A stretch of DNA of 64,000 nucleotides from Gemmatimonadota bacterium (GTDB lineage Bacteria; Gemmatimonadota; Gemmatimonadetes; Gemmatimonadales; GWC2-71-9): positions 406 to 64,405 of the forward strand of contig JANNSD010000034.1 in NCBI GenBank assembly GCA_031402225.1, given 5' to 3'. Positions 33,284 to 64,000 of the stretch are shown here, piece after piece; within the stretch, counting starts at the first letter, position 1, and each line of letters opens with the position of its first letter. The translations under genes were made by a program, and so were the position numbers. A model generated the notes under the pieces. The model saw only the letters and a program-made list of their open reading frames with translations, was not told the DNA's origin and searched no databases.

Positions 33284-33721
33284 TCACCCGGCACGGGTCC
33301 AGGTCTGTGTCTTCCCGCCGACGCCTGCCTTCACCTTCACCTTGAGTGTCCCGTCCTTGTCCAGGCTCAGCTCGGCGTTGTAGCTCGATCCGCGCCTGGG
33401 CGCATAGATGCGGCATCCCGTCGCCTGGGTGGCGTCGCCGGTGCATCCGGTCAGGATATCAATGCCCATGAGGGACCGGGTGCGGAGGGAGGCGTCGCTG
33501 TTCTTGGCGTCGACGGCGGCGGGGTTCTTGAGCCAGGTCACCTTGCCGGTCCAGGCGCTGCCACTCTGGACGATGGTGACCTTGGAGCTGGAATCTTCAG
33601 TAAACCAGACGCCGGCGATGGACTGCGCGGCGCTGCGGGTCGTCGATGCCATCAGGATGCCGACCGAGAGCAGCGCCGCTCGTGACGTGAGGACGTGAAG
33701 ACGTGAGGACGTGATGGTCAT
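33284..33721 (-). CDS. DUF2147 domain protein (secreted)
   Basis: IAGVWFTEDSSSKVTIVQSGSAWTGKVTWLKN...NSDASLRTRSLMGIDIL...CRIYAPRRGSSYNAELSL. The ATG at 33721 overlaps the RND stop (ATGA). Confidence 0.7.
   Translation of the reverse strand: MTITSSRLHVLTSRAALLSVGILMASTTRSAAQSIAGVWFTEDSSSKVTIVQSGSAWTGKVTWLKNPAAVDAKNSDASLRTRSLMGIDILTGCTGDATQATGCRIYAPRRGSSYNAELSLDKDGTLKVKVKAGVGGKTQTWTRAG
33687..33710 (-). repeat. Three tandem 8-nt units GTGARGAC in the first codons of the DUF2147 gene
   Basis: gtgaggac gtgaagac gtgaggac, encoding TSSRLHVLTSR. Same unit as at 63376..63453. Confidence 0.8.
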
Positions 33722-37374: not shown

Positions 37375-38547
37375 CTACTGGATGGGCCGGACGGCGTCAC
37401 CGTCCCGCACGATGGTGGCGCCCGTGGTGATGACGCGCGCGCCGGCCTCGAGGCCGGCGGTGACGATCACGGAGTTGCCGACGACCTGACCCAGCTCCAC
37501 TGGCTTGAGCCGGGCGACGTCCTTCTTGCCGTCGCTGTCCACGATGAAGACGGCGTAGCCGGTATCGCCCGGGGACTTCTGCACCACGGCGGCGAGCGGC
37601 ACCGCCACCGCTTCTGCGTGCGCGGTCGCGGGGCCGGTCCGGCCGGGCACCTCGAGGGATGCCACCATGCCATCGCGGAGCGCGCCGTCGGCGTTCTTCA
37701 CCGAGACCTCGATTTCGCTGACGCGGGTGTTGGCGTCGGCGGAGGGTGCGATCGCGGTGATGGTGCCGGTGAAGATCCTGCCGGGTACCGACGCGGTGGT
37801 GAGGCGCATCTTGCTGCCCATGACGACGCTGCCGAGGGTGACGTCGGGCACGCCGAAGACGACCTTCACATAGGAGACGTCGGCGAGGACGAAGCCGGTG
37901 GTGCCGGGACCGACCAGGTCGCCAACCTCGATCTTGCGTTGCAACAACACGCCGTTCATCGGGGCAATGAGGGTGGCGTACCCGAGATTGGTCTGGGCCT
38001 CGTTGAGCTGGGCGCGCGCGCCGTCGACGGCTGCCTTGTCGGTTTCGTATTCCTGCTTCGCCGAGTCGTAATCGGGACCGGTGATGCTGTTGGTGGCCTG
38101 GAGGTTGGTGGCGCGGCGGAAGTCGTTGGTGGCCTTCTCGAGCGCGGCGTTGGCCTTGTCGAGGTTGGCCTGGGCCTTCGTGACGTTGTCGACGTAGTCG
38201 GTGTCGCGCACCCTGGCGAGCAGGGAGCCACTGGACACGACATCGCCCTGCTGCAGGTCTCGCTGGCGGCCGTCGGCGCCCTTCACCTGACGGATGGCGT
38301 CGACGTAGCCGTTCACCTTGAAGGCGACGTCCACCTGGGCACGGGGGATGACATTGGCGGAGTAGCGGATGCCGTTGGTGCCGGAGGCGGTGGTGGCCTG
38401 CTGTGTACGAACTGGAATTCCAGAGGGAGCGGCTGGGGGCTTTGGGGTGCAGGCAACAAGCAGCAGCAGAACGCTGGTCGTGAGTCGTGAGTCGTGAGTC
38501 GTGAACGCACGAGTCGTGAGTCGTGAGGCGTGAGTCGTGAGGGTCAT
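37375..38547 (-). CDS. RND efflux periplasmic adaptor (MFP/HlyD family) lipoprotein
   Basis: LLLLVAC lipobox, coiled-coil hairpin (ANLDKANAALEKA...AQLNEAQTNLGYATLIAP), and beta-barrel C-terminus. Confidence 0.9.
   Translation of the reverse strand: MTLTTHASRLTTRAFTTHDSRLTTSVLLLLVACTPKPPAAPSGIPVRTQQATTASGTNGIRYSANVIPRAQVDVAFKVNGYVDAIRQVKGADGRQRDLQQGDVVSSGSLLARVRDTDYVDNVTKAQANLDKANAALEKATNDFRRATNLQATNSITGPDYDSAKQEYETDKAAVDGARAQLNEAQTNLGYATLIAPMNGVLLQRKIEVGDLVGPGTTGFVLADVSYVKVVFGVPDVTLGSVVMGSKMRLTTASVPGRIFTGTITAIAPSADANTRVSEIEVSVKNADGALRDGMVASLEVPGRTGPATAHAEAVAVPLAAVVQKSPGDTGYAVFIVDSDGKKDVARLKPVELGQVVGNSVIVTAGLEAGARVITTGATIVRDGDAVRPIQ
38477..38540 (-). repeat. Heptanucleotide microsatellite (GTCGTGA x4, an 8-nt spacer, then x4 with one variant) filling codons 3-23 of the MFP gene
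   Basis: Read directly: 38477-38504 holds four perfect units and 38513-38540 four more (one is GGCGTGA). Encodes THDSRLTT-type repeats. Confidence 0.9.
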
Positions 38548-48321: not shown

Positions 48322-49728
48322 TCAATACCCTGTCTTGTTCATGATGTCACGGCGGGTCGCCAGGGTCCTGCCCTGTAGCAGGCGCACGATCGCATCGGCC
48401 GTGGCCTCACCTGTCCGCACGGCACCGTCGAAGAACCCGGGCCAGCGATCGGCGATCTCCGAGCCAGCCCAGTGGATGCGCCCGACGGGGGCCGTGAGGG
48501 CCTCGCCGAAGCTCGTCCACACCCCGGGCGGCATGAAGGCGGCATAGCCGCCGCCGACCCAGGGTTCGGAGGGCCAGTCAACCTCATCGTAGGTGACTGG
48601 TGACAGCGCTTCCTTGCCAAAGTACAGCGCCAGGTCGGCGAGCACCGCATGGCGGCGGTCGGCGTTACCCATCGGCCTCCACTGCCGGTAGCGATCGCCT
48701 GCCACGAACGTCGCCATCACCCCGGCACCGGTCTCCGGGTCGGAGCTGTCGGCACAGAGCTCGATCCATCGGCCGTTCCCCAGTCCGATCCCGGCCAAGC
48801 CCTGCTCCCGCCAGAACGGCCGGTCGTAGGAGACCAGGACCTTGGCGCAGCAGCCCATCGGCATCCGCTGGGTCAGTTGTGCCCGCAGCGAGGGCATCGG
48901 CGGATGGTAGGTGATCCGGCCTGCAAGCGCGGGCGGCATGGCCAGCACGACAAACGTCGCGGCGTACGCGTCCCGGGTTGTTTCCACGTTGACGCCGGCG
49001 TGGTCCTGGGAAATCCGGGTGACCGGTTCACCGAGGCGCACCTGTCCGCCCAGCTCGGCCGCGATCATGCCGGGAAGCTGTCCCGCGCCTCCATGGATGA
49101 GCTCGGCTTCGGGATGTTCCGATTGCGCGGCGCAGTTCTGTCCCCACAGCACGTGCAGGAGCGAGAGCTGGTTCGGCTCCTCCGGACCGAGAAATCCTGC
49201 CGCCCGGGCCATGTACGAAAAGTACCAGCGTCCGAATGCGGTCCGGGTGTTGTCGCCGATCCACTGGGCGAAGGTCTGACTGTCCAGCAGCTGGTTGTGG
49301 TCGTTGCGCCTGGGGTGACCGGGCGGCAAGGCTTTGGAGAGCGCGTCGAAACGCGCCCAGGCACTTCTCGCGTCGTCCCATTCTTCCTGGCTGACGCCGG
49401 GAGGTTCCCCTTCGGCGAAGCCCTGAAAGAAGCCGTCGAACTCATGACGTTTTCCGTCGAACAGCAGCACCTTCTTCCCTTCACTCGGGGAAGGAAAGCG
49501 ACGAAGGCCGTACTCCTCGAGCAGGGCGAGGACGCGATCCTGGGTCGGGCCAACCCACTGTCCGCCCCGGTCAATCCATTGCCCTGATGGCAGGTGTTCG
49601 CCGTGCATGCGACCGCCGAGCCGTTCGTGGGCTTCCAGCACGAGCACGGTATATCCCGCCCTCTGGAGGTTGCGAGCGGTGACGAGTCCGGCCAATCCGG
49701 CGCCGACCACGATGCAGTCGGACGTCAC
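48322..49728 (-). CDS. Flavin monoamine oxidase family protein
   Basis: CIVVGAGLAGLVTARNLQRAGYTVLVLEAHERLGGRM, and C-terminal IHWAGSEIADRWPGFFDGAVRTG. Confidence 0.9.
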   Translation of the reverse strand: MTSDCIVVGAGLAGLVTARNLQRAGYTVLVLEAHERLGGRMHGEHLPSGQWIDRGGQWVGPTQDRVLALLEEYGLRRFPSPSEGKKVLLFDGKRHEFDGFFQGFAEGEPPGVSQEEWDDARSAWARFDALSKALPPGHPRRNDHNQLLDSQTFAQWIGDNTRTAFGRWYFSYMARAAGFLGPEEPNQLSLLHVLWGQNCAAQSEHPEAELIHGGAGQLPGMIAAELGGQVRLGEPVTRISQDHAGVNVETTRDAYAATFVVLAMPPALAGRITYHPPMPSLRAQLTQRMPMGCCAKVLVSYDRPFWREQGLAGIGLGNGRWIELCADSSDPETGAGVMATFVAGDRYRQWRPMGNADRRHAVLADLALYFGKEALSPVTYDEVDWPSEPWVGGGYAAFMPPGVWTSFGEALTAPVGRIHWAGSEIADRWPGFFDGAVRTGEATADAIVRLLQGRTLATRRDIMNKTGY

Positions 49729-50648
49729 GGTGGCAGGGAGGCGACGTAGGCGGCGACGGCGATCATGTCGTTGAGGTCGAGCTGCTCCGCGACTAGCCGC
49801 ATGGGCGCGCTTTCGGTTCCGGCCCGCGCGCCGTGCTTGAAGTCATAGAGCTGGCGCACGATATAGGTGGGTGAACGGCCGGCGATGCCCGGCGCGGGAT
49901 CGAGCCCTTGCAAGGCAGGGCCGTGGCAGGTGGCGCATGGCGCGACCCTGCCGCCGTTCCCGGTCGCGGCGATCGCGCTGCCCTTGGCGATGCTGCCGAC
50001 TGGTGCGTAGGCTAGGAACAGCGCCCGCGCGTCGCGACGCTCGAACTGCTCCAGGTCTTCCGGCACCTCCACGATGCGCTGCCCCGTCGGCTCCCACGCG
50101 CCGGTGGAGGTGGCCAGGAGCCACCCGGCGACATGGGTGCGGGGGACGCTGTCGCTCTCGATCACCGTGATCCGGGACGCGAGGTGCTGCGCGGCGAAGT
50201 AGCGCACCGCGATGGTGATCTCGGAATCGGTGGCGGCGCGCGCGATCGTCACCATCAGCGCGGTGGGCCGCCGGCGTGGCTCGGCGCCGGTGCGCGCGCC
50301 ACTCCGGAAGTCGGCGACCTGGCGGGTCATGTAGTCGGCGGTGAGTCCGGCGAGGCTCGCGTTCTCGGGACCACCGGCGCCATCAGCGCGGTGGCAGAGG
50401 CCGCAGGCGAAGACCTCGGGCTTCCGGCCCAGGGCCACGATCGCGGGCATGGGGGAATGCTCGGCGGGGTGCCAGTCGGGGGCGGCGAAGAAGTTGATCG
50501 GCTTCGGCGTCGCGTCGGCTGGCCGGACCGGGTAGGCCCAGTCGGGGGGGCCATCGCTCGGCGCGGGGGCCTGAGCCGCCAGTTCGGGCGACAGCGCCAG
50601 GGCCAGCAGCGTGAGGGCGGGTGTGAGGCGAGCCGGTGCGCTATTCAA
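49725..50648 (-). CDS. Di-heme c-type cytochrome (secreted)
   Basis: Two CxxCH motifs (CGLCH, CATCH). Signal peptide MNSAPARLTPALTLLALALSPELAAQA. TTG start at 50648. Confidence 0.85.
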   Translation of the reverse strand: MNSAPARLTPALTLLALALSPELAAQAPAPSDGPPDWAYPVRPADATPKPINFFAAPDWHPAEHSPMPAIVALGRKPEVFACGLCHRADGAGGPENASLAGLTADYMTRQVADFRSGARTGAEPRRRPTALMVTIARAATDSEITIAVRYFAAQHLASRITVIESDSVPRTHVAGWLLATSTGAWEPTGQRIVEVPEDLEQFERRDARALFLAYAPVGSIAKGSAIAATGNGGRVAPCATCHGPALQGLDPAPGIAGRSPTYIVRQLYDFKHGARAGTESAPMRLVAEQLDLNDMIAVAAYVASLPP

Positions 50649-50651
50649 GGC

Positions 50652-50676
50652 GATCCTTCGCTTCGCTCAGGATGAC
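50652..50676 (-). repeat. REP-like hairpin element type 1, copy a (GATCCTTCGCTTCGCTCAGGATGAC)
   Basis: Ends 4 nt upstream of the cytochrome c TTG start. ATCCT/AGGAT stem. On the mRNA strand its GAAGGA acts as the apparent SD. Confidence 0.85.
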
Positions 50677-50731
50677 AGGGTCGCTCAGGATGACAGGGTC
50701 GCTCAGGATGACAGGGTCGCTCAGGATGACA
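50664..50731 (-). repeat. 3.8 tandem copies of the 18-nt unit CGCTCAGGATGACAGGGT
   Basis: Fills the kinase-cytochrome c intergenic gap. The kinase stop codon (50721..50723) lies in the last copy. Confidence 0.9.
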
Positions 50732-53720
50732 ATGGGAGCGCGGCGCGCTCGGCTCGGGCCGAGTCGAGCATGGGCTTGAAGACGGGGTCGCTGTCGCGCC
50801 ACAGGTCGAGGAATGCATCATAACGCTGGGCCGATTCCTTCGGGCGGCCGAGCGCCTTCTGAATGCGGGCCTGCGCCAGCAGTGCCGGTCCGAGGAAGAC
50901 GAGTTCCTTCTCCGAGTTCTCACCGAGACTCTGGTACCAGGCCAGGGCGTCCTCCCCGCGGCCACGCTGGCGAAGAAGTTCCGCCCGGGTGAACCGCTCC
51001 AGCGCCCCACTGTAGAATGGCGAGACGAGGGTCAACTCATACCAGCTCTCGATGTGCAATGCCTCGAGTCCGGCGAGCGCGCTGTCGGGCCCGGCGGCAG
51101 CCAGGTCGACCTGGGCCCGCAGCCCCTGAGCCAATTCCAGCGCGAGCGGGGGTGCCTCCGGTCCGGTCCCGACTGCCTCGAGTTCCGCCGCGCGCTCCAT
51201 CGCCTCGGCCCGATCACCGCGACGGGCGTCGAGCAGGCCGAGGAGGTAGGTCTTCAGGATGGGATGCACGTCGCTGTGCGCGCTGTAGAACGCGCTTGGG
51301 TGCGTGCTGTGCGACGCAGTGTCCTCCGCGTTCCACCGGGCGAGCCGGGCCCGGGCGACATCCAGGTCCGCCTTCGACTGTGGGACAAACGGGAGCGCGC
51401 TGAACCAGGCATCGACGAGCGGGGCCTCGGCACCGCTCAGCCTGGCGGCAGCGCCGAGTTCACTCCTCGCAGCAGTCAGCCGTCCCCGGGCAAGCGCGAG
51501 GTGCGCCAGCAGGATGTGCCCCTGCGCCCGCACTTCCCGTGGCCGCGCCGGCTCGGTCATGACGCGGGCGATACGCTCGGCGCCGGGAATGTCCTGCGCG
51601 AAGACCGCGACCGACCAGAGGGCGATCGGGACCGTCGCGTCCGGCGCGCGGCCGAATGCGGTCACAGCCGAGTCCATCCCGGCGGAGTCGCGTCTGGTGA
51701 TGGCCTGCAGTGCGCGGAGTTCGAGGGTTCGGTCGCCGCTCGGGCTCAGTCGATAGAACCGGGCCGCGAGCGAGTCGAGTTCCTTCTGGTTTCCCTCGCG
51801 GGCCGCGATCCGGACCAGGTGATAGAGCGCACCGAGATCACCCGGGTCCAGGAAAAGCGCCCGCGAGAAGGGTTCCCTGGCACCGGTCATCGAGCCGCCG
51901 CGCAGCGGGCTACCATGGAAGAGGAGTTCGCCCAGCTGGTACCACGCCTCCGCGTCGTCGGGCCAGGTCTCGACGATCGCGCGGATCTGCTGCTCGGCAT
52001 CGCTCGACCGCCCCCGCCGCATGGCCAATACCGCTTCAAGGAGCCGACGGTCATGCACCGACAGCCGGCTGCTGTGGCGAAAGGCAAGCTCGGCCGAACG
52101 ACGCGAGTGGTCGACCCAGGCGAGCCGCTCCTGGGCCATGCTGAGGCGGTAATAGGCGAGAGCGAAGGCGGTGTCGGCGGCGACGGCTTCCTGAAACGCG
52201 GTCACGGCAGCGGCGTACTGACCGGCCCGGTACGACTGCTCTCCCGCCAGGTAGGCCTTGAGCGCCGGGAGCGACGCGGTCGTCACTGCGGCCGCCCGCA
52301 TCAGCCGCGCTCCGCCTTGTGCGGACCGGTCAGCGGCCAGGCGCGTGGCGAGGAGATCGACGAGCGACAACACTTCGCCGGGCTCACCGTCCACCGTGGC
52401 CTCGGCGAGGGGCTTCGCGGGGTTCGTCCGATCGAAGAGCGAGGCACTGAGCCGCAACTTGCCGCCCACCTCGAGCACGTCTCCCATCACGAACAACCCG
52501 GCATTGAAGTGGTCGGCCACCGTGCGAGCGCGCTCGACGGTCATCGCCGCGGCATCCTGACCGGCGAATCCGAGGAGGGCGTGGGCGTTGACGCTGCGGA
52601 GACCGGCGGCGCCGTCGAGGCTGGCGCTCAGGAGGTCGACGATGCCCTCACCGAGATAGGCGAACTGCGGTCCGCCGCGCACGGTGAACGGGAGCACGGC
52701 GATGACATTGGCTGACGCCGCGTCCGGTGGGGGCTTCGCTGTGCGCCGGAGTGCGAATACGGCCGCGAGGGCAAGGAGAATCGCAGCGGCGGCAATCGCG
52801 ACGCGCCGAGCGCTCGCGGGCGCGCCTCGGCGAGGCGAGGCCGTTTCCAGCGTGCGCAGTTGCGCCACGATGTCATCGGCGGACTGCACGCGCTCGTCGG
52901 GATTCTTGGCGAGGCAGCGCATGACGAGCGCAGCGAGGGCGGGCGGGCAGTCGGGGCGCTTCAGTTCGATCGGCGCGGGCGGCTGGGCGATATGCGCCGC
53001 CATCTGCTGTGCCGGTGTGGTGGCGGCGTAGGGCGACCCACCGGCCAGCATCTCGTACGCCACAAGTCCCAGGGCGTAGAGGTCGGCGCGATGATCGATG
53101 TTCGGATCGGCGGCGACCTGCTCCGGCGCCATGTAGGCGGGGGTGCCGAGGGAGACGCCGAGGGTGGTGAGTGCGTCAGGGCGCTGGCCTGCGGCCAGCG
53201 CCTTGGCGACGCCGAAGTCGAGCACGAGCGCGTGACCGTCGGCGAGGAAGATATTTTCCGGCTTGATGTCGCGGTGGACGACGCCGGCCTTGTGGGCCTT
53301 GGCGAGGGCATCGGCGATTTCACTGGTGTAGCGGGTCACTTCGTCGAGTGGCAACGGCCCGGTGCGCGCGAGGCGGGCGCGGAGGGTTTCGCCGTCGACG
53401 TAGGGCATGACGTAGAAGAGGAGCGATCCTTCCCCTTCGCGGCGCTCAGGGTCAGGATGACCAACGGTGATGGCGCCGCTGTCGAAGAGCGGAAGAATGT
53501 GGGGATGGCGGAGGTTGGCGGTCGTCTCGATTTCGCGGAGGAAGCGATCGGCGCCGAGTGCGGCGGCGAGTTCGGGGCGGAGGACCTTGATGGCGACCTG
53601 CCGATTGTGCTTGAGGTCGTGGGCGAGGTAGACGGTGGCCATGCCGCCGTGGCCGATCTCGCGCTCGATCCGGTAGCGGTCACTGAGCGCGCTGGTGAGG
53701 CGGTCCTGGGCGGGATTCAC
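50721..53720 (-). CDS. Ser/Thr protein kinase with one TM segment and a long periplasmic TPR-like domain
   Basis: [29 protein letters not shown]; TM VAIAAAAILLALAAVFAL; C-terminal helical repeats. Confidence 0.9.
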   Translation of the reverse strand: MNPAQDRLTSALSDRYRIEREIGHGGMATVYLAHDLKHNRQVAIKVLRPELAAALGADRFLREIETTANLRHPHILPLFDSGAITVGHPDPERREGEGSLLFYVMPYVDGETLRARLARTGPLPLDEVTRYTSEIADALAKAHKAGVVHRDIKPENIFLADGHALVLDFGVAKALAAGQRPDALTTLGVSLGTPAYMAPEQVAADPNIDHRADLYALGLVAYEMLAGGSPYAATTPAQQMAAHIAQPPAPIELKRPDCPPALAALVMRCLAKNPDERVQSADDIVAQLRTLETASPRRGAPASARRVAIAAAAILLALAAVFALRRTAKPPPDAASANVIAVLPFTVRGGPQFAYLGEGIVDLLSASLDGAAGLRSVNAHALLGFAGQDAAAMTVERARTVADHFNAGLFVMGDVLEVGGKLRLSASLFDRTNPAKPLAEATVDGEPGEVLSLVDLLATRLAADRSAQGGARLMRAAAVTTASLPALKAYLAGEQSYRAGQYAAAVTAFQEAVAADTAFALAYYRLSMAQERLAWVDHSRRSAELAFRHSSRLSVHDRRLLEAVLAMRRGRSSDAEQQIRAIVETWPDDAEAWYQLGELLFHGSPLRGGSMTGAREPFSRALFLDPGDLGALYHLVRIAAREGNQKELDSLAARFYRLSPSGDRTLELRALQAITRRDSAGMDSAVTAFGRAPDATVPIALWSVAVFAQDIPGAERIARVMTEPARPREVRAQGHILLAHLALARGRLTAARSELGAAARLSGAEAPLVDAWFSALPFVPQSKADLDVARARLARWNAEDTASHSTHPSAFYSAHSDVHPILKTYLLGLLDARRGDRAEAMERAAELEAVGTGPEAPPLALELAQGLRAQVDLAAAGPDSALAGLEALHIESWYELTLVSPFYSGALERFTRAELLRQRGRGEDALAWYQSLGENSEKELVFLGPALLAQARIQKALGRPKESAQRYDAFLDLWRDSDPVFKPMLDSARAERAALPLSS
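53425..53461 (-). repeat. REP-like element type 1, extended copy b, in frame inside the kinase catalytic domain
   Basis: GATCCTTCCCCTTCGCGGCGCTCAGGGTCAGGATGAC encodes GHPDPERREGEGS between DSGA and LLFYVMPY. Confidence 0.8.
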
Positions 53721-56880: not shown

Positions 56881-57045
56881 TTAACGCTGGGGCCGACCGC
56901 GTTGTCTCACTCGCCGGAGGCGGTCACGGCTAGCACTGCCCCGGGTCCAGGCCCTGGAGGACAAGCGTTCCTGCACATGGCCGAGTTCGCGCTCGATGCG
57001 GTAGCGGTCGGCGAGGGCGCCGATGAGGCGTTCGAGGCTATTCAA
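56881..57045 (-). pseudogene. Ser/Thr kinase 5' stub (22 N-terminal codons then unrelated sequence)
   Basis: Own translation from TTG 57045: LNSLERLIGALADRYRIERELG followed by HVQERLSSRAW... . Preceded by REP-like copy c. Confidence 0.4.
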
Positions 57046-57048
57046 GGT

Positions 57049-57074
57049 GGTCCTTCGCTTCGCTCAGGACTCAC
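57049..57074 (-). repeat. REP-like element type 1, copy c (GGTCCTTCGCTTCGCTCAGGACTCAC)
   Basis: The stem is GTCCT/AGGAC instead of ATCCT/AGGAT, a compensatory pair change. Confidence 0.8.
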
Positions 57075-57722: not shown

Positions 57723-58227
57723 TCAGACGTCGGGCGCGGGTGGCCCTCCTGCGTCGGACAGTCCCACCCGCTGCACCATCGGCCAGTAGCGTGGGTCCCT
57801 CGGATCGGATCGAGCCGGGGATGGACCCGCAGCAGGATCAGCCCCGACGCCTTCTCCGTGACCGCAATCTCGAGCCACCTGAACGCCTCGCCTACGTCGC
57901 CCAGGCTGGCATGCAGCGCGCCGAGGCGACCCGATCCTTCCCCTTCGCTGCGCTCGGGGTCAGGATGACGCGGGTGGGTGGCACCCGAGTCGAACAGCGG
58001 GACGTGTGCGGATGCTGCAGGTTCGCGGTGGTCTTGATCTCGCTGAGGAACCGCTCGGCGCCGATGACGGCGGCGAGTTCGGGGCGGAGGACCTTGATGG
58101 CGACCTGGCGGTCGTGCTTGAGGTCATGCGCGAGGTAGACGGTGGCCATGCCGCCCTGGCCGAGCTCGCGCTCAAGGCGGTAGCGGTCAGCGAGGGCCGC
58201 GGCGAGCCGCGCGCCGGCGCCGCTCAC
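57723..58227 (-). pseudogene. Chimeric Ser/Thr kinase remnant: N-terminal 70 aa, REP-like element, then the C-terminal TPR tail, with at least two frameshifts
   Basis: From GTG 58227 (overlapping the upstream kinase stop as GTGA): ...[39 protein letters not shown]...LQHPH. After a frameshift: [22 protein letters not shown]. Then [47 protein letters not shown]. Confidence 0.55.
57933..57969 (-). repeat. REP-like element type 1, extended copy d
   Basis: GATCCTTCCCCTTCGCTGCGCTCGGGGTCAGGATGAC, at the same kinase position (after DSGA) as copy b. Confidence 0.8.
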
Positions 58228-60914
58228 GGCTTCACCTTCGCCTTCAGTTCCTCGAACCAGTTCTCCACCAGCAAGAAGGTGCGCTCGGCGGCCTCCGCGC
58301 GGCGCACCACGCGCGCCATGAGGAAGCGCTGGTCGTCCAGCGAGAGGTCGAACGGGGTGTAGCGCTCGTTGCGGGTGAGGTAGAGATCCTCGCCGAGCGT
58401 GAAGAGGATGCGGCGCGCGCCGAACTGGGGCGTGGCGCCGCCCTGCATGGGGGCGACCACCATGTTGCGCTCGGCGTCCACGAAGAAGAGCTCCCGGCCG
58501 CTGTGGGCCCAGAGCGGGGCCTGGCCGCCGTTGGTGGAGACCTGCCACTTGCCGCTGTCGGTGGCCGGGAAGGGGCGCACGTAGATCTCGGAGCTGCCGG
58601 TCTCGTTGGACTCGTAGGCGAGCCACTTCCCGTCCGGCGACAGCGCGGGCGCCGCTTCGTCCACGTCGGGCGTCGCCACGAGCGGCACGGGCGCGCTGTC
58701 CACGCCCGGCCGGATCCCGAAGATGTTCCGCCCGGCGGTCGCGCCGACCTCCCCGCCCCGGCGGAACACCAGCCAGCGGCCGTCCGGCGAGGCGAGGACT
58801 TCGTCGATCGTGCCGGGATCGGTGAACCTGAGGAAGATCTCGGTGCTTCCCGTCCCGTCGGCGCGCTGCCGGCCCAGCTCGGTATTGCGACGGGAGTACA
58901 TCACGGACCGTCCGTCCGGCGTCCACCGGGGACGCGAGTCGTCGGTGCTGTCCCGCGTCAGGCGCGAGAGCGGGCCGGCCGGCAGCTCCTTGATCCAGAC
59001 GTCGTCGCCCGACTCGGTGTTGAGTCCGATGGCGAGCCGCTTCCCGTCGGGCGAGAGGGCCCAGCCGACGTTGCCGGCCATCTGGGTGAGGCGGAAGGTC
59101 CACGCCGAGTCGACCGGGCGCTGTATGCCCGTTCGGTCCACCCATACCAGCGTGTGCCGCTCCCCGGACCCGCCGGCGGTCGCGTTGCTGCCGACCTCCA
59201 TCACCACCGTGCCGGTGGACGACACCGTGGCCCCCTTCACGCCGCCGCCGAAGACCGGCACGGGCGTGCTGCGGAACTCCAGCGCCTTCAGGTCGAAGGG
59301 CGCCGCGAAGACCTGCCCATCCCTGGCGACGTACGCCACGTGCCCCGAGTGCACGTACCCGCCCTGGCGCTCGCCCGGGAGCAGCACCCTGGCGTCGCCG
59401 GATGCGAGGTCGAGCACCCAGAGATCGGACGTCGCGCAGTTGAAGCTGCACGAGGTGAAGAGCACGCCGCGGCCGCGCGGAAGTGCGGCAGGAAACACCA
59501 AGAGCCGCCCCTGGGCTTCCGGCGCCCGGAGCAGGGTGGACGGGCCGCCTGCCTCGGAGACGCGCATGAGGTTGAAGGTGCCGCGCTGGACGTAGACGAT
59601 CGTGCCGTCATCCAGCCATGCGACGCCGAAGGGCACCGCGGAGTCCGCGAGCGTGGTGATCGCACCCCCGGTGATGGGCATCTTCTTCAACTGGAGGTTC
59701 TGCCCGAAGGCGATCCACTCGCCGTCGGGCGAAATGAACGGACTGCTGGCGTTCGTCGTCCCGAGGAGTGGGGTGGCCGGGTACTCGTCGCGACGCTTCA
59801 CCCAGAGCTGTCGCTGCTGGCTGCTGTCGCCCGGGCCCTGGTACACCAGCCGCGATCCGTCGGGCGTGATCGCGACGCCTCCGAGCGGGGCCTGCCCGTC
59901 CGCGAATGCCAGGCCGTAGCGGGCCACCGGCCGCGGGGGCTCGGGCCGGAGCCAGCCCCACGCGGCGAGCGCGGCGGTGCCGAGCAGCGCGGCCGCGAGA
60001 CCCCAGACGATCGCGCGCGAGGCGCGCGTCACGGGGTGGGCCGCGGTCATCGCGACCGTCGCCGGATAGGTCACGCCCTTGCCGCTGCCCTCGAGCGCGT
60101 CGATGAACTCCTTGGCGCTCCCGAAGCGGTCGGCGGGGAGCTTCTGCAGCGCGGTGAGTACCGCCCCCTCGACTGCGGGCGGCACCGTGGGCCGCTTCGG
60201 GCGGAGCGGCGGCGGGTTCTCCGTCAGCACCTTGGCCACGATGGCCTGCGAGCTGGGGCCGATGAAGGGCGGCTCGCCGGCGAGCATTTCGTAGGTCATG
60301 GCACCCAGGGCATAGACGTCGCTGCGCGGGCCGATGTCGCGGTCGCCCATGGCCTGCTCGGGGCTCATGTAGGCGGGCGTGCCGAGGCTCATGCCGGTCT
60401 GGGTCATGCGGCTGCCGCCGGCCTGCTGCACGGCGAGGGCGATGCCGAAGTCGGCCACGAGCGCCTGGCCGTCCTGCAGCAGGATGTTCTCCGGCTTGAT
60501 GTCGCGGTGCACCACGCCACGCTTGTGGGCGAACTCGAGCGCGCTCGCCACTTCCTTGGCGATCCGCACGGCCGCGTCGACAGGGAGCTGCCGCTCGCGC
60601 ACGAGCCAGCCGCGCAGCGTCTCGCCCTCGATGAAGGGCATGACGTAGTAGAGCAGGCCATCAGCCGCGCCCGAGTCGATCAGCCCCAGGATGTGCGGAT
60701 GCTGCAGGCTCGCCGTGGTCTTGATCTCGGTGAGGAAGCGCTCGCCCCCGATGACGGCACTGAGCTCGGGGTGCAGCACCTTGATCGCCACCTTGCGCTC
60801 GTGCTTCAGGTCCTCGGCGAGGTAGACGGTGGCCATGCCGCCCTGGCCGAGTTCACGGTCGAGGCGATAGCGGTCACTGAGTGCGGCGGTGAGGCGATCG
60901 AGGGTGGGATTCAC
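58224..60914 (-). CDS. Ser/Thr protein kinase with TM segment and TolB-like (PD40/WD40-like) beta-propeller
   Basis: [29 protein letters not shown]; [20 protein letters not shown]. The C-terminal half has repeated SPDG...LAF/Y propeller blades. Confidence 0.9.
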
Positions 60915-61009
60915 GGGGCGAAACTTGCACGGTGGGGCAGCGTGCGGCTAGGGGATCGCACCGGCAGCGGGTGCCTACGTTGCGTCCATGACCTGCGCGA
61001 AGAAGCGGT

Positions 61010-61477
61010 TCAGGTCGATCCGGAGCGGTGGCACGTCCGGCCCGGCCACGTGATGTCGTGGTCGAGCACTTCGGGCCTGGCATCGCCGGGACGCCAGCAC
61101 TCCACCAGCCGGGCGTCGAGGTCCACGATCCAGTATCCGGGTACGCCGGCGCGCTGGTAGAACCGGCGCTTGGTGCCGCGGTCGTATCGCGCGGTGGATG
61201 GTGAGGCGACTTCGATGACGAGGATGGGCGTGGGGGCGTCTTCCCAGCGGTCGAACCGGGGGCCGGGCGGCACCACGAACAGGTCGGGCTGGGTGAGCTG
61301 ATCGGGGAGCACCTCGAGATCGGCCGGGAGGTTAAAGCAACGGCCGATGGGGTGCTCCCGCAGGTAGGCCGCAAGCACGTCATACAACACCATGACGCCG
61401 TCCTGATGCCGCACCCCGTCGTCGGGAAGCGCCAGTACTTCAGCGCGGGTCCAGCGGGCCACGTCAGGCATAGCCAT
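61010..61477 (-). CDS. Uma2-family (DUF820) endonuclease-like protein, possibly internally shortened
   Basis: WTRAEVLALPDDGVR..., QPDLFVV, PILVIEVASPSTARYDRGTKRRFYQRAGVPGYWIVD. The usual YELIDG segment after PDDG appears to be missing. Confidence 0.55.
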   Translation of the reverse strand: MAMPDVARWTRAEVLALPDDGVRHQDGVMVLYDVLAAYLREHPIGRCFNLPADLEVLPDQLTQPDLFVVPPGPRFDRWEDAPTPILVIEVASPSTARYDRGTKRRFYQRAGVPGYWIVDLDARLVECWRPGDARPEVLDHDITWPGRTCHRSGST

Positions 61478-61509
61478 AGCGTACGCTCGGCGGTGCCGGG
61501 GGGCAACCC

Positions 61510-61572
61510 GATCCTTCGCTGCGCTCAGGATGACAGCGGGCCTCGCAATGACAGCGGGCCTCGCAATGACAC
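61510..61572 (-). repeat. REP-like element type 1 copy e (61510..61534) followed by 2.4 tandem copies of the 18-nt unit ATGACAGCGGGCCTCGCA
   Basis: Located between the kinase stop (61580) and the Uma2 start (61477). Confidence 0.85.
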
Positions 61573-61579
61573 CGAGATC

Positions 61580-64000
61580 TCAGGGCGTGTGTTGCGCGGA
61601 GAGCTCGGCGGGAAAGTTCTCGACCACGACGAGTTCCCGCTGGCCACCCTTCCCGGCGCCCTGACGAATCATGACAAAGCGCTTGCCGTCGCGGGTGATG
61701 TCCCAGGAGCCGTATGTGGCGACGTAGGGCGCGCCCTGGATGGGGAGGGTACGGCGCTGGCCGGCGATGAACGTCGGCCCCGGCAGGACGGCCACCGCGT
61801 TGAGCTGGCCCGTCGTATTCTCGCCGCCGCTCCAGTAGAACAGCTCGCGACTGTCGGGAGACCACAAGGGCTCGAAGCCACTGCCGGTCGACACCTGCCA
61901 CCGCGCTGACCCGGCGTCGGGAAAGGGACGCACGTAAATCTCGAAGGCGCCTGACTCATTGGAGGCGTATGCCAGCCAGCGCCCATCGGGGGAGAGTGCC
62001 GGCGTGACCTCCTCAAAGTTCGTGTGCACGAGGGGAACCAGGGAGGTATCCCCGCTGGTGCGGCGGGCCAAGAGGTCGGCCGGGTTGGTAAGGAACATGA
62101 GCCACTTCCCATCGCGGCTCCAGCTCGCCGCATTCACGACCCGGCCCGGTATGGTCAGCACCGGTTCCGTCGCACCGATTCCGTCGGCGCGCTTGCGATA
62201 GAACTGGGGACCGGAGCCATGGTTGGCGATGAAACCCACGTATTGCCCGTCGGGCGACCAGGTGGGACGGATACTCCGGTTTCCCTCGAAGGTGAGCTTG
62301 CTGAGCGGCCCGTCGGGCAACTGCTTGATCCAGACCTGTTGTTCAGTCCCCTCGATCTTGCTGATGGCGAGCCGGCGCCCATCCGGGGAGAGTGCCAGGG
62401 TCGCGAAGTCACCCACAAAGCTCGAATCGATCGGGGTGACCGAACCGTCGCGATTCACGTACACAGGCTGACTGGGGTCCATCGCGGCCCCGCCGGCCCG
62501 GTACACCAGCGTCCCCGACATGGAGATGGCGAGGTCCACAGCGCCGAAGGACCGTCTCCCAATGTCACTGCCGATGGCGAACGGCTCCCCGCTTATCGCG
62601 AGCCGGTCGAGGTCGAAATGGACCGCCAGCAGTTCGCCTGCCGCCGTGACGTACAGGAGGTAGCCGCCTGGTGCATAGCGACCAGTGATCGCCTGGACCA
62701 GGGTGTGCACCTTCATCGTTTTCGTGTCGAGGACGGCCAGTTGGCTCCGGTCCTCAGTGTTCCCGCGCTGCTGAATGGTGAAGAGGACGCCGCGCCCCTT
62801 CGGCAGGGCATTGGGCCAGAAATGGTCCTGCTCTCCGCGCGCGGTGTCGACGGTGGTGACCTGTTGCATGACCTTCGCACCGTTCGGCGCGACACGCATG
62901 AGCCCGGTGGTGCCACCGCCGGTGAGCCCGTCAAAGTAGATGAACCCGTCCTCGCTCCAGGTTGCGCCATCGGCCCCGATCCCCGAGTCCGCGACGGTAA
63001 TGGGCGGTGCACCGGTGAGGCTCACGACCTTGATCTCGGTGTTGCCCTCGAGAGTGTACCCGACGCGCTGGCCGTCGGGCGAGAAGAACGGCACCGTTGG
63101 GTGACTGGCGCCGGGAATCGGCGTGGCGCGGAGCTGGTTCCGGTTCCGGAGCCAGAGTTGGGACCCATCGGGCCCGCTACCGGAGTAGGCCAGGCGGGAT
63201 CCGTCGGGCGAAATGGCGATGCGGTGTCCGCGCGTGTCGGCGAGGGCCTGGTCGGCGGGGAGGAGGGTGGTATAGCGAAGGACGGGACGGGGGGGCTCCG
63301 AGCGGAGCGCCCTTCCTGCCAGGGCCGCGAGGATCGCGGTAAGCGCCAAGGCAGCAAGGACGGGAAGACGCTGACGTGAGGACGTGAGGACGTGAGGACG
63401 CGAAGATCCTTCGCTTCGCTCAGGATGACGTGAGGACGTGAGGACGTGAGGACTTGAAAGTGCCTCGGCGAATTCCTTCGCGGTGCCGAAGCGATCGGCG
63501 GGGAGCTTTTGGAGGGCGGTTAGTACGGCGTGTTCTACTGCCGACGGGACGCTAGGGCGCACAGGGCGCATAGGGCGCGGAGACTCGGTCAGTACCTTCG
63601 CGACGATCGCCTGGGAGTTGAGGCCGGTGAACGGCGGCTCACCCGTGAGCATCTCGTAGGTCATCGCACCCAACGCATAGACATCACTGCGGGCGCCGAG
63701 GTCGCGCTCACCCATGGCCTGTTCGGGCGACATGTAGGCAGGGGTGCCGAGCGACATGCCCGTCTGGGTCATGCGGCTGCCGCCGGCCTGCTGGACCGCG
63801 AGCGCGATACCGAAGTCGGCGACGAGCGCCGAGCCATCCTGCAGCAGGATGTTTTCCGGCTTGATGTCGCGGTGGACGACGCCCTGGCGGTGGGCGTAGT
63901 CGAGGGCGGATGCGACTTCCTTCGCGAGGCGGAGCGCGTCTTCGATGGGGAGCTGCTTGTCGCGGGTCAGCCGATTGCGGAGCGACTCGCCCGAGACGTA
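61580..64000 (-). CDS. Ser/Thr protein kinase with TolB-like beta-propeller; N-terminus beyond the window edge
   Basis: The frame is open to 64000 upstream of the track start (63772): ...[29 protein letters not shown]...[10 protein letters not shown]-terminal PD40-type blades. Confidence 0.9.
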   Translation of the reverse strand, partial: YVSGESLRNRLTRDKQLPIEDALRLAKEVASALDYAHRQGVVHRDIKPENILLQDGSALVADFGIALAVQQAGGSRMTQTGMSLGTPAYMSPEQAMGERDLGARSDVYALGAMTYEMLTGEPPFTGLNSQAIVAKVLTESPRPMRPVRPSVPSAVEHAVLTALQKLPADRFGTAKEFAEALSSPHVLTSSRHPERSEGSSRPHVLTSSRQRLPVLAALALTAILAALAGRALRSEPPRPVLRYTTLLPADQALADTRGHRIAISPDGSRLAYSGSGPDGSQLWLRNRNQLRATPIPGASHPTVPFFSPDGQRVGYTLEGNTEIKVVSLTGAPPITVADSGIGADGATWSEDGFIYFDGLTGGGTTGLMRVAPNGAKVMQQVTTVDTARGEQDHFWPNALPKGRGVLFTIQQRGNTEDRSQLAVLDTKTMKVHTLVQAITGRYAPGGYLLYVTAAGELLAVHFDLDRLAISGEPFAIGSDIGRRSFGAVDLAISMSGTLVYRAGGAAMDPSQPVYVNRDGSVTPIDSSFVGDFATLALSPDGRRLAISKIEGTEQQVWIKQLPDGPLSKLTFEGNRSIRPTWSPDGQYVGFIANHGSGPQFYRKRADGIGATEPVLTIPGRVVNAASWSRDGKWLMFLTNPADLLARRTSGDTSLVPLVHTNFEEVTPALSPDGRWLAYASNESGAFEIYVRPFPDAGSARWQVSTGSGFEPLWSPDSRELFYWSGGENTTGQLNAVAVLPGPTFIAGQRRTLPIQGAPYVATYGSWDITRDGKRFVMIRQGAGKGGQRELVVVENFPAELSAQHTP
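63376..63453 (-). repeat. Composite in-frame insert in the kinase linker: GTGAGGAC x3, REP-like copy f (63405..63429), GTGAGGAC x3
   Basis: Encodes SSPHVLTSSRHPERSEGSSRPHVLTSSR between the kinase domain and the TM segment. Confidence 0.85.

What the first reader, a model, noticed from the sequence alone, without database searches (positions are those of the whole stretch)
50649..50676. REP-like hairpin element whose 3' stem arm overlaps the Shine-Dalgarno of the downstream gene
The 25-nt sequence GATCCTTCGCTTCGCTCAGGATGAC or variants occurs six times: 50652, 53425, 57049, 57933, 61510 and 63405. All copies have the same orientation and all sit next to or inside minus-strand genes. It can fold as ATCCT-loop-AGGAT. 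Copy c has GTCCT...AGGAC, a compensatory double change that keeps the stem. Copies b and d add a second inner stem, CCCT/AGGG. At 50648 and 57045 the mRNA-sense element reads GUCAUCCUGAGCGAAGCGAAGGAUCGCC-UUG-AAU-AGC. The only SD-like sequence (GAAGGA) is therefore part of the 3' stem arm, and both downstream ORFs begin with the same TTG-AAT-AGC (MNS). Inference: the element may carry a portable, structure-gated ribosome-binding site and start codon, or act as a transcript-stability or termination hairpin between co-directional genes.
Basis: partly seen in the sequence, partly recalled or inferred. Interest (0 to 1): 0.65.

Follow-up and report, generated by a model that had tools for sequence, protein, structure and literature searches.

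The report
Ssn-type hairpin repeat at gene start
The flagged hairpin is one copy of a short DNA repeat found in many bacterial phyla. It goes with a tiny single-strand-DNA nuclease gene (Ssn type), and in this soil bacterium it has also come to supply ribosome-binding sites, start and stop codons and protein loops.

Summary
All six copies lie at the stated coordinates on the minus strand, and no shuffle matches them. The genome has about 57 copies of GTCATCCTGAGCGNAGCGAAGGATC. The 5-bp stem covaries.

It is not a dedicated translational switch. It belongs to the (C/T)GTC-headed hairpin repeats tied to Ssn GIY-YIG single-strand-DNA nucleases (NTS/SRM; Chenal 2025):
- The genome encodes one 97-aa single-domain GIY-YIG protein with related hairpins just downstream.
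- In three other Gemmatimonadota genomes the exact 25-mer brackets such a gene in units of 357-366 bp.
- 25 of 37 genomes with the repeat carry the gene, against 50 of 364 without it.
- No RAYT transposase is present.

In the native unit the left hairpin ends 7-9 nt before the nuclease ATG. Here about 11 copies end 3-7 nt before a start codon. Copy a sits in a 72-nt spacer made entirely of repeat sequence: it holds the kinase stop, AAGGA and the cytochrome c TTG. That gene's first 12 codons derive from a kinase gene, so recombination moved the module. About a quarter of copies lie in frame inside genes.

The parts
50652..50676 (-). Copy a: full 25-nt hairpin GTCATCCTGAGCGAAGCGAAGGATC. Its 3' arm AAGGA lies 5 nt before the cytochrome c TTG.
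50677..50730 (-). Three tandem 18-nt half-copies (GTCATCCTGAGCGACCCT). The most upstream one supplies the last three codons (V-I-L) and the TGA stop (50721-50723) of the 999-aa kinase gene.
50610..50648 (-). TTG start (50646-50648) and first 12 codons of the cytochrome c gene (49725-50648). This stretch is homologous to kinase-gene 5' ends and forms the n-region of the signal peptide.
53425..53461 (-). Copy b: 37-nt nested variant. It is translated in frame (GHPDPERREGEGS) in the loop between DSG and LLFYVMP of the kinase domain of the 999-aa kinase-TPR protein (50721-53720).
57049..57073 (-). Copy c: compensated stem GTCCT/AGGAC, 3 nt before TTG (57043-57045). That TTG opens a kinase N-terminal remnant of about 22 codons (MNSLERLIGALADRYRIERELG...).
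57933..57969 (-). Copy d: nested variant at the same kinase-loop position, inside a frameshifted, truncated kinase remnant.
61510..61534 (-). Copy e: between a kinase-PD40 gene (stop at 61580) and a Uma2-like ORF. A TTG follows at +3, but the real start is probably the ATG at 61476.
61535..61571 (-). Two 18-nt half-copies of a second hairpin family (GTCATTGCGAGGCCCGCT), directly upstream of copy e.
63405..63429 (-). Copy f: translated in frame (HPERSEGS) in the linker between the kinase domain and the membrane helix of a kinase-PD40 protein.
63373..63457 (-). GACGTGAG octamer arrays (63373-63400 and 63427-63457) on both sides of copy f, also translated (SSPHVLTSS...SRPHVLTSS).

Best explanation
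**What it is.** The element is a solo copy of the hairpin repeat that forms the two ends of a miniature unit: hairpin, small GIY-YIG nuclease gene, inverted hairpin. This is the Ssn/SRM kind of system.

**What it probably does as DNA (inferred).** By analogy with Neisseria SsnA, the strand reading GTCATCC...GGATC folds as single-stranded DNA. The nuclease would recognise the GTC head, the stem and the C after the stem, and would cut a few bases upstream. This genome has about 57 copies.

**How the copies spread here (inferred).** Copies sit mostly on the coding strand of their neighbours. Recombination among paralogous Ser/Thr kinase genes probably carried them to three recurrent kinase positions: just before the start codon, in a loop of the kinase domain, and in the linker before the membrane helix.

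**The flagged locus (shown in the sequence).** The whole 72-nt spacer between the kinase gene and the cytochrome c gene is repeat sequence. A half-copy gives the kinase its stop codon. The full copy gives cytochrome c its only SD-like motif (AAGGA). The TTG start and the first 12 codons come from a kinase-gene 5' module.

**Consequence for translation (inferred).** AAGGA probably serves as the Shine-Dalgarno sequence, as the same hairpin appears to do for the nuclease gene in its native unit. The hairpin may lower translation. That would be a by-product of the repeat, not its purpose.
For: **Repeat and structure**
- 57 copies in the genome.
- The stem is 95.8% paired across 55 distinct variants. 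All 5 outer pairs show changes on both sides, and 0 of 500 shuffles reach this.

**Link to the nuclease**
- The genome has one 97-aa single-domain GIY-YIG ORF at C44:27058-27348. Three to four hairpins sharing GTCATCCT(G/A)A...GAAGGATC follow within about 620 nt.
- The exact 25-mer brackets homologous genes, in inverted orientation, in G108, G389 and G151.
- Compensated or longer variants flank homologues in an Acidobacteria and a Terriglobales genome. In a Dehalococcoidales genome a variant of the same family and NTS-like hairpins flank the gene.
- Within the genus, only the two genomes with the most copies (49 and 18) have the gene.
- In the phylum sample, 25 of 37 repeat-positive genomes have the gene, against 50 of 364 repeat-negative ones.
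- SsnA properties come from PMC11893778. The three bases before the palindrome and the C after it are critical, the enzyme acts on one ssDNA strand only, and it cuts upstream. Here the GTC head is nearly invariant in the own-genome copies, and the C after the stem is kept in at least 90% of the variant sequences.

**Ribosome-binding position**
- In the native units the ATG lies 7-9 nt after GGATC.
- About 11 start-adjacent copies in this genome.
- SD-like 4-mers peak at -11/-10 before 1002 long ORFs.

**Origin of the module**
- Chimeric cytochrome c 5' end: 27/36 matches, 0 of 997 controls.
Against: - No enzymology or transcript data. The nuclease-repeat interaction is inferred from gene adjacency, co-occurrence and a published homologous system.
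- I could not align the 97-aa protein with N. meningitidis SsnA or assign it to CDD cd10448. NCBIfam gave no hit. The only solved relative is UPF0213 BH0048, at E = 3e-4.
- The canonical 25-mer does not match the published degenerate SRM search pattern, because of its G.A/A.G internal loop.
- This genome's nuclease gene has hairpins on its 3' side only, and they are longer variants.
- 12 of 37 repeat-positive genomes lack the gene. Among them are G056 (14 copies) and G006 (4 exact copies; 8 at <=1 mismatch).
- Predicted hairpin stability is unremarkable.
Confidence: 0.75

Rival explanations
1. A dedicated RNA device. The hairpin exists to gate the ribosome-binding site and start codon of downstream genes. 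The upstream half-copies would act as extra anti-SD arms.
For: - Recurrent placement 3-7 nt before starts.
- 8 of 9 intact start-adjacent copies carry upstream half-copy arrays.
- Copies are co-oriented with neighbouring genes, 27 to 4.
- The 3' arm holds the only SD-like motif.
Against: - No start adjacency in other phyla: 1 of 142 copies.
- About a quarter of copies lie inside coding frames and about a fifth in inverted doublets.
- Half-copy arrays also occur at copies far from any start.
- Kinase paralogues without the element have conserved leaders with no SD.
- Folding energy is ordinary.
- Most start-adjacent cases are paralogous kinase 5' ends or derived from them.
Confidence: 0.1
2. 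A classical REP/REPIN moved by a RAYT (IS200/IS605-like Y1 HUH) transposase.
For: - Inverted doublets, four at exactly 40 nt spacing and others at 41-56 nt.
- Patchy distribution within the genus and phylum.
- A conserved unpaired head next to a covarying stem.
Against: - No Y1_Tnp (PF01797) match in this 99.9%-complete genome.
- Among 41 relatives, RAYT presence does not follow copy number.
- The head is (T/C)GTC, not GTAG.
- The flanking gene in native units is GIY-YIG, not HUH.
Confidence: 0.04
3. A transcript-level stabiliser, processing site or terminator hairpin between co-directional genes, as shown for some enterobacterial REPs.
For: - Copies a and e lie between co-directional genes.
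- Strong co-orientation with genes.
- This could coexist with the DNA-level role.
Against: - No T-run after the hairpin.
- Many copies lie inside reading frames.
- No Rfam family matches.
- Modest stability.
- No transcript data could be obtained.
Confidence: 0.1

Closest known systems
NTS / SRM repeats with Ssn (SsnA) GIY-YIG single-strand-DNA nucleases (Chenal et al., Nat Commun 2025, PMC11893778)
   Same: - Oriented hairpin of 20-50 nt with an unpaired (C/T)GTC head, a C just after the stem and a GCG-N-AGC-type apex.
- Hundreds to dozens of copies per genome.
- Copies flank a single-domain GIY-YIG gene of about 95 aa on both sides.
- Found in many phyla.
- Gene and repeat co-occur.
   Different: - The stem is interrupted by a tandem G.A/A.G internal loop, so the 25-mer is not caught by the published degenerate SRM pattern.
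- About 25% of copies lie inside genes, against 2% reported for N. meningitidis.
- Upstream-only arrays of half-copies are common.
- The host is not known to be naturally transformable, so the biological role is open.
- Nuclease activity was not tested.
CGTC-tagged REP superfamily (Di Nocera, De Gregorio & Rocco 2013, PMC3733652)
   Same: - Short palindromic repeats with a (C)GTC tag at one end and a short tail at the other.
- No dedicated transposase found.
- Some copies lie inside ORFs or at N-termini, and some give stop codons to neighbouring genes.
   Different: - The head here is mostly TGTC or NGTC, and the tail is C(G/T), not CCA.
- That survey did not report Gemmatimonadota hosts (no mention of them in the text).
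Rickettsia palindromic elements (RPEs; discussed in PMC3733652)
   Same: Palindromic repeats inserted in frame into protein-coding genes, tolerated in surface loops or linkers.
   Different: - RPEs are longer, by my recollection about 100-150 bp (not checked here).
- Here 25-37 nt add 8-13 residues (HPERSEGS or VILSEAKD).
- The copies concentrate in one paralogous kinase family.
REP/BIME and REPIN-RAYT systems of Proteobacteria
   Same: Dispersed hairpins, inverted doublets, lineage-specific bursts, a conserved head next to the stem, and a single-copy partner gene.
   Different: No RAYT is present here. The partner is a GIY-YIG protein. The same 25-mer is identical across many phyla, whereas REP sequences are typically lineage-specific (my understanding of that literature).

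Membership tests
Ssn/SRM system (Chenal 2025) | The genome encodes a small (~94 aa) single-domain GIY-YIG protein | tested here: met
   97-aa ORF at C44:27058-27348. Pfam GIY-YIG covers residues 2-73 at E = 1e-14, with no other domain. More than 1100 homologues, typically about 95-101 aa.
Ssn/SRM system (Chenal 2025) | The hairpin repeats flank the nuclease gene, ideally on both sides | tested here: met
   The exact 25-mer lies on both sides, inverted, in G108:C11, G389:C3 and G151:C4. Variants flank homologues in an Acidobacteria, a Terriglobales and a Dehalococcoidales genome. In this genome they lie on the 3' side only, as longer variants.
Ssn/SRM system (Chenal 2025) | Gene and repeat co-occur across genomes | tested here: met
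   25 of 37 against 50 of 364 in a 401-genome phylum sample. Within the genus, only the two highest-copy genomes have the gene.
Ssn/SRM system (Chenal 2025) | The repeat matches the published SRM search pattern HGTCWYN(0-2)YYVSBRHN(0-5)WNVSBRGN(0-2)RNCYNB | tested here: not met
   The canonical 25-mer and the nested variant fail the pattern, while the Neisseria NTS passes. The head (GTCAT), the apex (GCG-N-AGC) and the tail (ATC) do match.
Ssn/SRM system (Chenal 2025) | The protein belongs to CDD cd10448, or is homologous to N. meningitidis SsnA at E < 1e-10 | not tested
   Neither CDD nor the SsnA sequence was available. NCBIfam gave no hit. The nearest solved structure is the single-domain UPF0213 protein BH0048, at E = 3e-4.
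Ssn/SRM system (Chenal 2025) | Strand-specific binding and cleavage of single-stranded DNA, with no activity on dsDNA or RNA | not testable with these tools
   Needs purified protein and oligonucleotides.
REP/REPIN-RAYT | A RAYT (Y1 HUH, PF01797) gene is present and associated with the repeats | tested here: not met
   No match in this genome. No correlation with copy number in 41 relatives.
Structured regulatory RNA (Rfam family) | Match to a curated covariance model | tested here: not met
   No hit at gathering threshold in the window or in 8 loci with doublets.

The most novel reading that the evidence does not exclude
Ssn cleavage next to these hairpins might actively drive local rewriting of DNA. 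The upstream-only half-copy arrays would be scars of repeated cutting and microhomology repair. The same process would keep replacing the loops, linkers and 5' ends of a large sensor-kinase family, and of proteins such as Tgt, a U32 peptidase and a YgfZ-like protein. In effect it would be a nuclease-driven diversification and gene-start shuffling system.
Probability: 0.12. Interest if true: 0.7.

Novelty: new member of a known kind. Interest (0 to 1): 0.4.

Why it matters
- It places a very common, cross-phylum 25-mer in a defined system: small GIY-YIG single-strand-DNA nucleases and their hairpins. This 25-mer is probably a source of spurious small ORFs such as HPERSEGS, VILSEAKD and SFASLRMT. 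The published search pattern misses this G.A-mismatch subclass, so the family is larger than reported.
- Such repeats can be co-opted. Here they supply a Shine-Dalgarno motif, start and stop codons and in-frame protein loops. A repeat-bearing gene 5' end was also transplanted onto an unrelated gene.
- For annotation: gene starts and ends next to these repeats, and short peptide inserts in kinases, should be read with the repeat in mind.

Tried and rejected
- **Rfam:** no family matched in the window or in 8 doublet loci.
- **Literature:** searches for the sequence itself and for related heads found only chance primer matches.
- **RAYT association:** rejected.
- **Shared neighbouring gene:** all-against-all BLAST of ORFs from 120 cross-phylum loci gave no family in more than 7 loci. 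This approach failed because solo copies are dispersed. The partner gene appeared only after the Ssn lead from earlier notes.
- **Stop codon next to the GGATC end:** the idea that copies sit right after stop codons of convergent genes was not supported.
- **Folding energy:** not informative as evidence of structure.
- **Empty-site comparison for the cytochrome c locus:** failed. The gene has no orthologue in the genus, and public contigs carrying it break inside the repeat.
- **GC3-phase gene calling:** noisy. I used it only for strand orientation.

Full report
**1. Observation**

The 25-mer GATCCTTCGCTTCGCTCAGGATGAC occurs on the + strand at 50652 and 63405 (both exact) and at 61510 (1 mismatch). 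None of 100 dinucleotide-preserving shuffles gave a match.
- Copies at 53425-53461 and 57933-57969 are 37-nt nested variants.
- The copy at 57049-57073 has the compensated stem GTCCT/AGGAC.
- All six read GTCATCC...GGATC on the minus strand, which is the strand of all local genes.
- RNA folding gives the proposed hairpin, including the extra CCCT/AGGG stem in b and d. The energy is ordinary: -8.3 kcal/mol, z = -0.8.

**2. Genome-wide picture**

The window is contig C34 of a 3.6-Mb, 67.6% G+C genome in 201 contigs. Homologues of its proteins are annotated as Gemmatimonadales.

There are 57 copies at <=5 mismatches. The most variable base is the loop N of GCG-N-AGC.

Covariation was tested on 55 distinct variants from this genome and from 120 loci of other phyla. 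The set was anchored only on the unpaired GTC head and the GAGCGNAGCGA core.
- The stem is paired in 95.8% of cells.
- All five outer pairs show changes on both sides, for example ATTCT/AGAAT, GTCCT/AGGAC, ATGCT/AGCAT and ATTCC/GGAAT.
- 0 of 500 shuffles reach the observed values, and slid controls collapse.

So a hairpin is under selection. The fold is a 5-bp stem, a tandem G.A/A.G internal loop, two G-C pairs and a GNA triloop.

**3. Distribution**

The phyla include Acidobacteriota, Chloroflexota, Planctomycetota, Verrucomicrobiota, Bacteroidota (isolates among them), Bacillota, Nitrospirota, Pseudomonadota, Synergistota, Omnitrophota and Patescibacteria. It also occurs in 64 viral or proviral contigs.

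Within the host phylum it is patchy: 37 of 401 genomes and 14 of 147 genera. This genome has the most copies, 41 exact. Within the genus the counts (<=1 mismatch) are 49, 18, 8, 3, 3, 1, 1 and zero in the remaining five.

In other phyla the copies are mostly inverted doublets whose partner arms are compensated variants.

**4. What it belongs to**

No RAYT (PF01797) is present in this genome, and RAYT presence in 41 relatives does not follow copy number. No protein family recurs next to solo copies.

Earlier notes from this scan pointed to Ssn GIY-YIG nucleases, and I tested that lead.

The published system is described in PMC11893778.
- SsnA is a 94-aa single-domain GIY-YIG protein.
- It binds the oriented hairpin NTS (CGTCATTCCCGCGMAVGCGGGAATCYRG) only as single-stranded DNA, and cuts a few bases upstream.
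- The three bases before the palindrome matter most for cutting, and the C after it matters most for binding.
- Its genes are typically flanked by such hairpins (SRMs).

The element here shares the GTCAT head, the GCG-N-AGC apex and the ATC tail.

Evidence for membership:
- This genome encodes exactly one small single-domain GIY-YIG ORF of 97 aa, at C44:27058-27348.
- Its stop is followed within about 620 nt by several hairpins of the form GTCATCCT(G/A)A-[variable inner stem-loop]-GAAGGATC, plus half-copies.
- In three other Gemmatimonadota genomes the exact 25-mer brackets a homologous gene in inverted orientation, giving units of 357-366 bp.
- Homologues in an Acidobacteria and a Terriglobales genome are flanked by compensated or longer variants. 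One in a Dehalococcoidales genome is flanked by a variant of the same family and by NTS-like hairpins.
- Within the genus, only the two highest-copy genomes have the gene.
- In the phylum sample, 25 of 37 repeat-positive genomes have it, against 50 of 364 repeat-negative ones, an odds ratio of about 13.

Caveats:
- The canonical 25-mer does not match the published degenerate SRM pattern, because of the G.A loop.
- Membership of the protein in cd10448 could not be checked.
- 12 repeat-positive genomes lack the gene.
- No enzymology was possible.

**5. The ribosome-binding-site idea**

In the three native units the left hairpin ends 7, 7 and 9 nt before the nuclease ATG. The right hairpin supplies the TGA stop, so the protein ends ...DPSLRSG*. 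The SD-like position of AAGGA is therefore a built-in feature of the unit. That AAGGA acts as the SD there is my inference.

SD-like 4-mers peak at -11/-10 before 1002 long ORFs in this genome. The element's AGGA starts at -9 when the start codon is at +3.

About 11 copies end 3-7 nt before a start codon:
- Cytochrome c: TTG at +3. The signal peptide needs this start.
- An S9-type peptidase with a signal peptide: TTG at +3.
- tgt: GTG at +5. The N-terminus MFEFRLEAERG is largely conserved across the genus.
- An NTF2-like protein: GTG at +4.
- At least five kinases and two kinase remnants.

Under a strict criterion, 6 of 39 copies have a first-in-frame start at +3. Controls gave 2 for the antisense orientation and 1, 0 and 0 at three shifted positions. 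In other phyla the figure is 1 of 142. The arrangement is therefore real but specific to this lineage.

The shared TTG-AAT-AGC of copies a and c reflects common descent.
- Copy c precedes a 22-codon kinase N-terminal remnant.
- The first 36 nt of the cytochrome c gene after the TTG match kinase 5' ends in register at 27/36.
- Among 997 control ORFs the mean best match is 14.7 (SD 2.6) and the maximum is 24; none reaches 27.

So a kinase 5' module (half-copies, hairpin, TTG and about 12 codons) was joined to the cytochrome c gene by recombination. Kinase paralogues without the element have a different conserved leader with no SD.

**6. The flagged locus**

The 999-aa kinase-TPR gene (50721-53720) ends ...PIVIL* with its TGA inside the first half-copy. 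The 72 nt up to the cytochrome c TTG are entirely repeat sequence. An amine oxidase gene follows, overlapping the end of the cytochrome c gene by 4 nt (49725-49728). The layout suggests one operon, which is an inference.

**7. Copies inside genes**

Fourteen of the 57 copies lie in frame; window copies b and d are not among them, because they exceed the mismatch limit.
- Kinase-domain loop between HPHILPLFDSG and LLYYVMP: four copies, plus window copies b and d.
- Kinase juxtamembrane linker: seven copies, including window copy f.
- One each in a protein I read as a U32-type peptidase, a YgfZ-like protein and an unidentified protein. The first two identifications rest on reading the sequences; no family search was run.

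In 120 homologous kinases that loop ranges from 3 to 36 residues among the 60 my motif pattern could parse, and it often carries peptides derived from repeats. HPERSEGS or a close variant appears in three of them.

Orthologue comparisons within the genus show that the U32 linker, the YgfZ loop and the tgt upstream region carry a different repeat in different species. Examples are this hairpin, a second hairpin family GTCATTGCGAGG...CCGAAGCAATC, and octamer or other short arrays. In G006 a degenerate copy (20/25 matches) sits in the YgfZ-like gene with only two extra codons. These sites turn over quickly.

**8. Half-copy arrays**

Of 46 full copies in this genome that are far enough from contig ends, 21 have one to four half-copies (GTCATCCTGAGC plus 5-9 locus-specific bases; period 17-21 nt) upstream, and none has them downstream. 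In other phyla 13 of 165 copies do.

The repeated unit ends at the hairpin apex, and the spacer equals the original upstream flank, with 2-4 nt of microhomology. I suggest slippage or repair at the hairpin, possibly triggered by upstream cutting by the nuclease. This is speculation.

**9. Strand bias**

Flanking genes are co-oriented with the element's sense strand, 27 to 4 upstream and 13 to 5 downstream. The sense strand is the C-rich strand in 32 of 41 cases. This fits a strand-specific process, but it cannot separate replication from transcription.

**10. Verdict**

The hairpin is real and under structural selection. It is a member of a recently described kind, the Ssn-type hairpin repeats, in a subclass not captured by the published search pattern. 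Its overlap with the SD sequence and start codon is a genuine, recurrent co-option in this genome, and it echoes the element's native layout. A dedicated structure-gated translational function is neither shown nor needed to explain the data.

Noticed in passing
window 33684-33714, 38477-38541, 63373-63457; genome C154 (tgt): Short tandem arrays of GACGTGAG octamers, and of GTCGTGA heptamers (x9), are common. They are translated inside proteins: SSPHVLTSS in the kinase linker and ALTSSRPHVLTSQ inside Tgt.
   Followed up: partly
window 57723-58227 and 56940-57045: Two decayed kinase genes. One is a frameshifted N-terminal remnant that ends shortly after copy d; in the unshifted frame a sequence resembling a TPR-tail C-terminus follows the element, which suggests a deletion between repeat copies. 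The other is a 22-codon N-terminal remnant after copy c, out of frame with the 956-aa He_PIG protein gene.
   Followed up: partly
window 60874-61506 (-): An ORF with the look of a Uma2-family (DUF820) endonuclease lies between two kinase genes, downstream of copy e. The resemblance is my reading of the sequence only. Pfam gave no hit at E <= 0.001, and it may be degenerate.
   Followed up: no
window 61535-61571; L201 (G010 U32 peptidase linker): A second hairpin family with the same architecture, GTCATTGCGAGG...CCGAAGCAATC. In the window it appears only as two half-copies fused upstream of copy e. A full copy lies in frame in the U32 peptidase of a sister species.
   Followed up: partly
L188-L195 (tgt upstream region in 8 genomes of the genus): The spacer before tgt differs in nearly every species: octamer arrays, 21-nt arrays, or this hairpin in either orientation. 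In G006 the hairpin is fused to the pre-existing GGATCCT at the end of the upstream gene. It looks as if 19 nt had been added to a resident half-site.
   Followed up: partly
L213 (G006 YgfZ-like gene) compared with genome C119:52060: At the site where this genome has a full copy plus a half-copy (+15 codons), G006 has a 20/25 degenerate copy with only +2 codons. The repeat seems to have overwritten resident sequence there, not simply inserted.
   Followed up: no
genome C74:2632-2804: Five head-to-tail full copies with a 37-nt period and nearly identical 12-nt spacers. This is a different array type from the half-copy arrays.
   Followed up: no
L122, L123 (public contigs carrying the cytochrome c gene): Both assemblies break inside the hairpin, 26-27 nt before the TTG. 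The repeat fragments short-read assemblies, and many homologues of the small nuclease sit on contigs of about 1 kb for the same likely reason.
   Followed up: no
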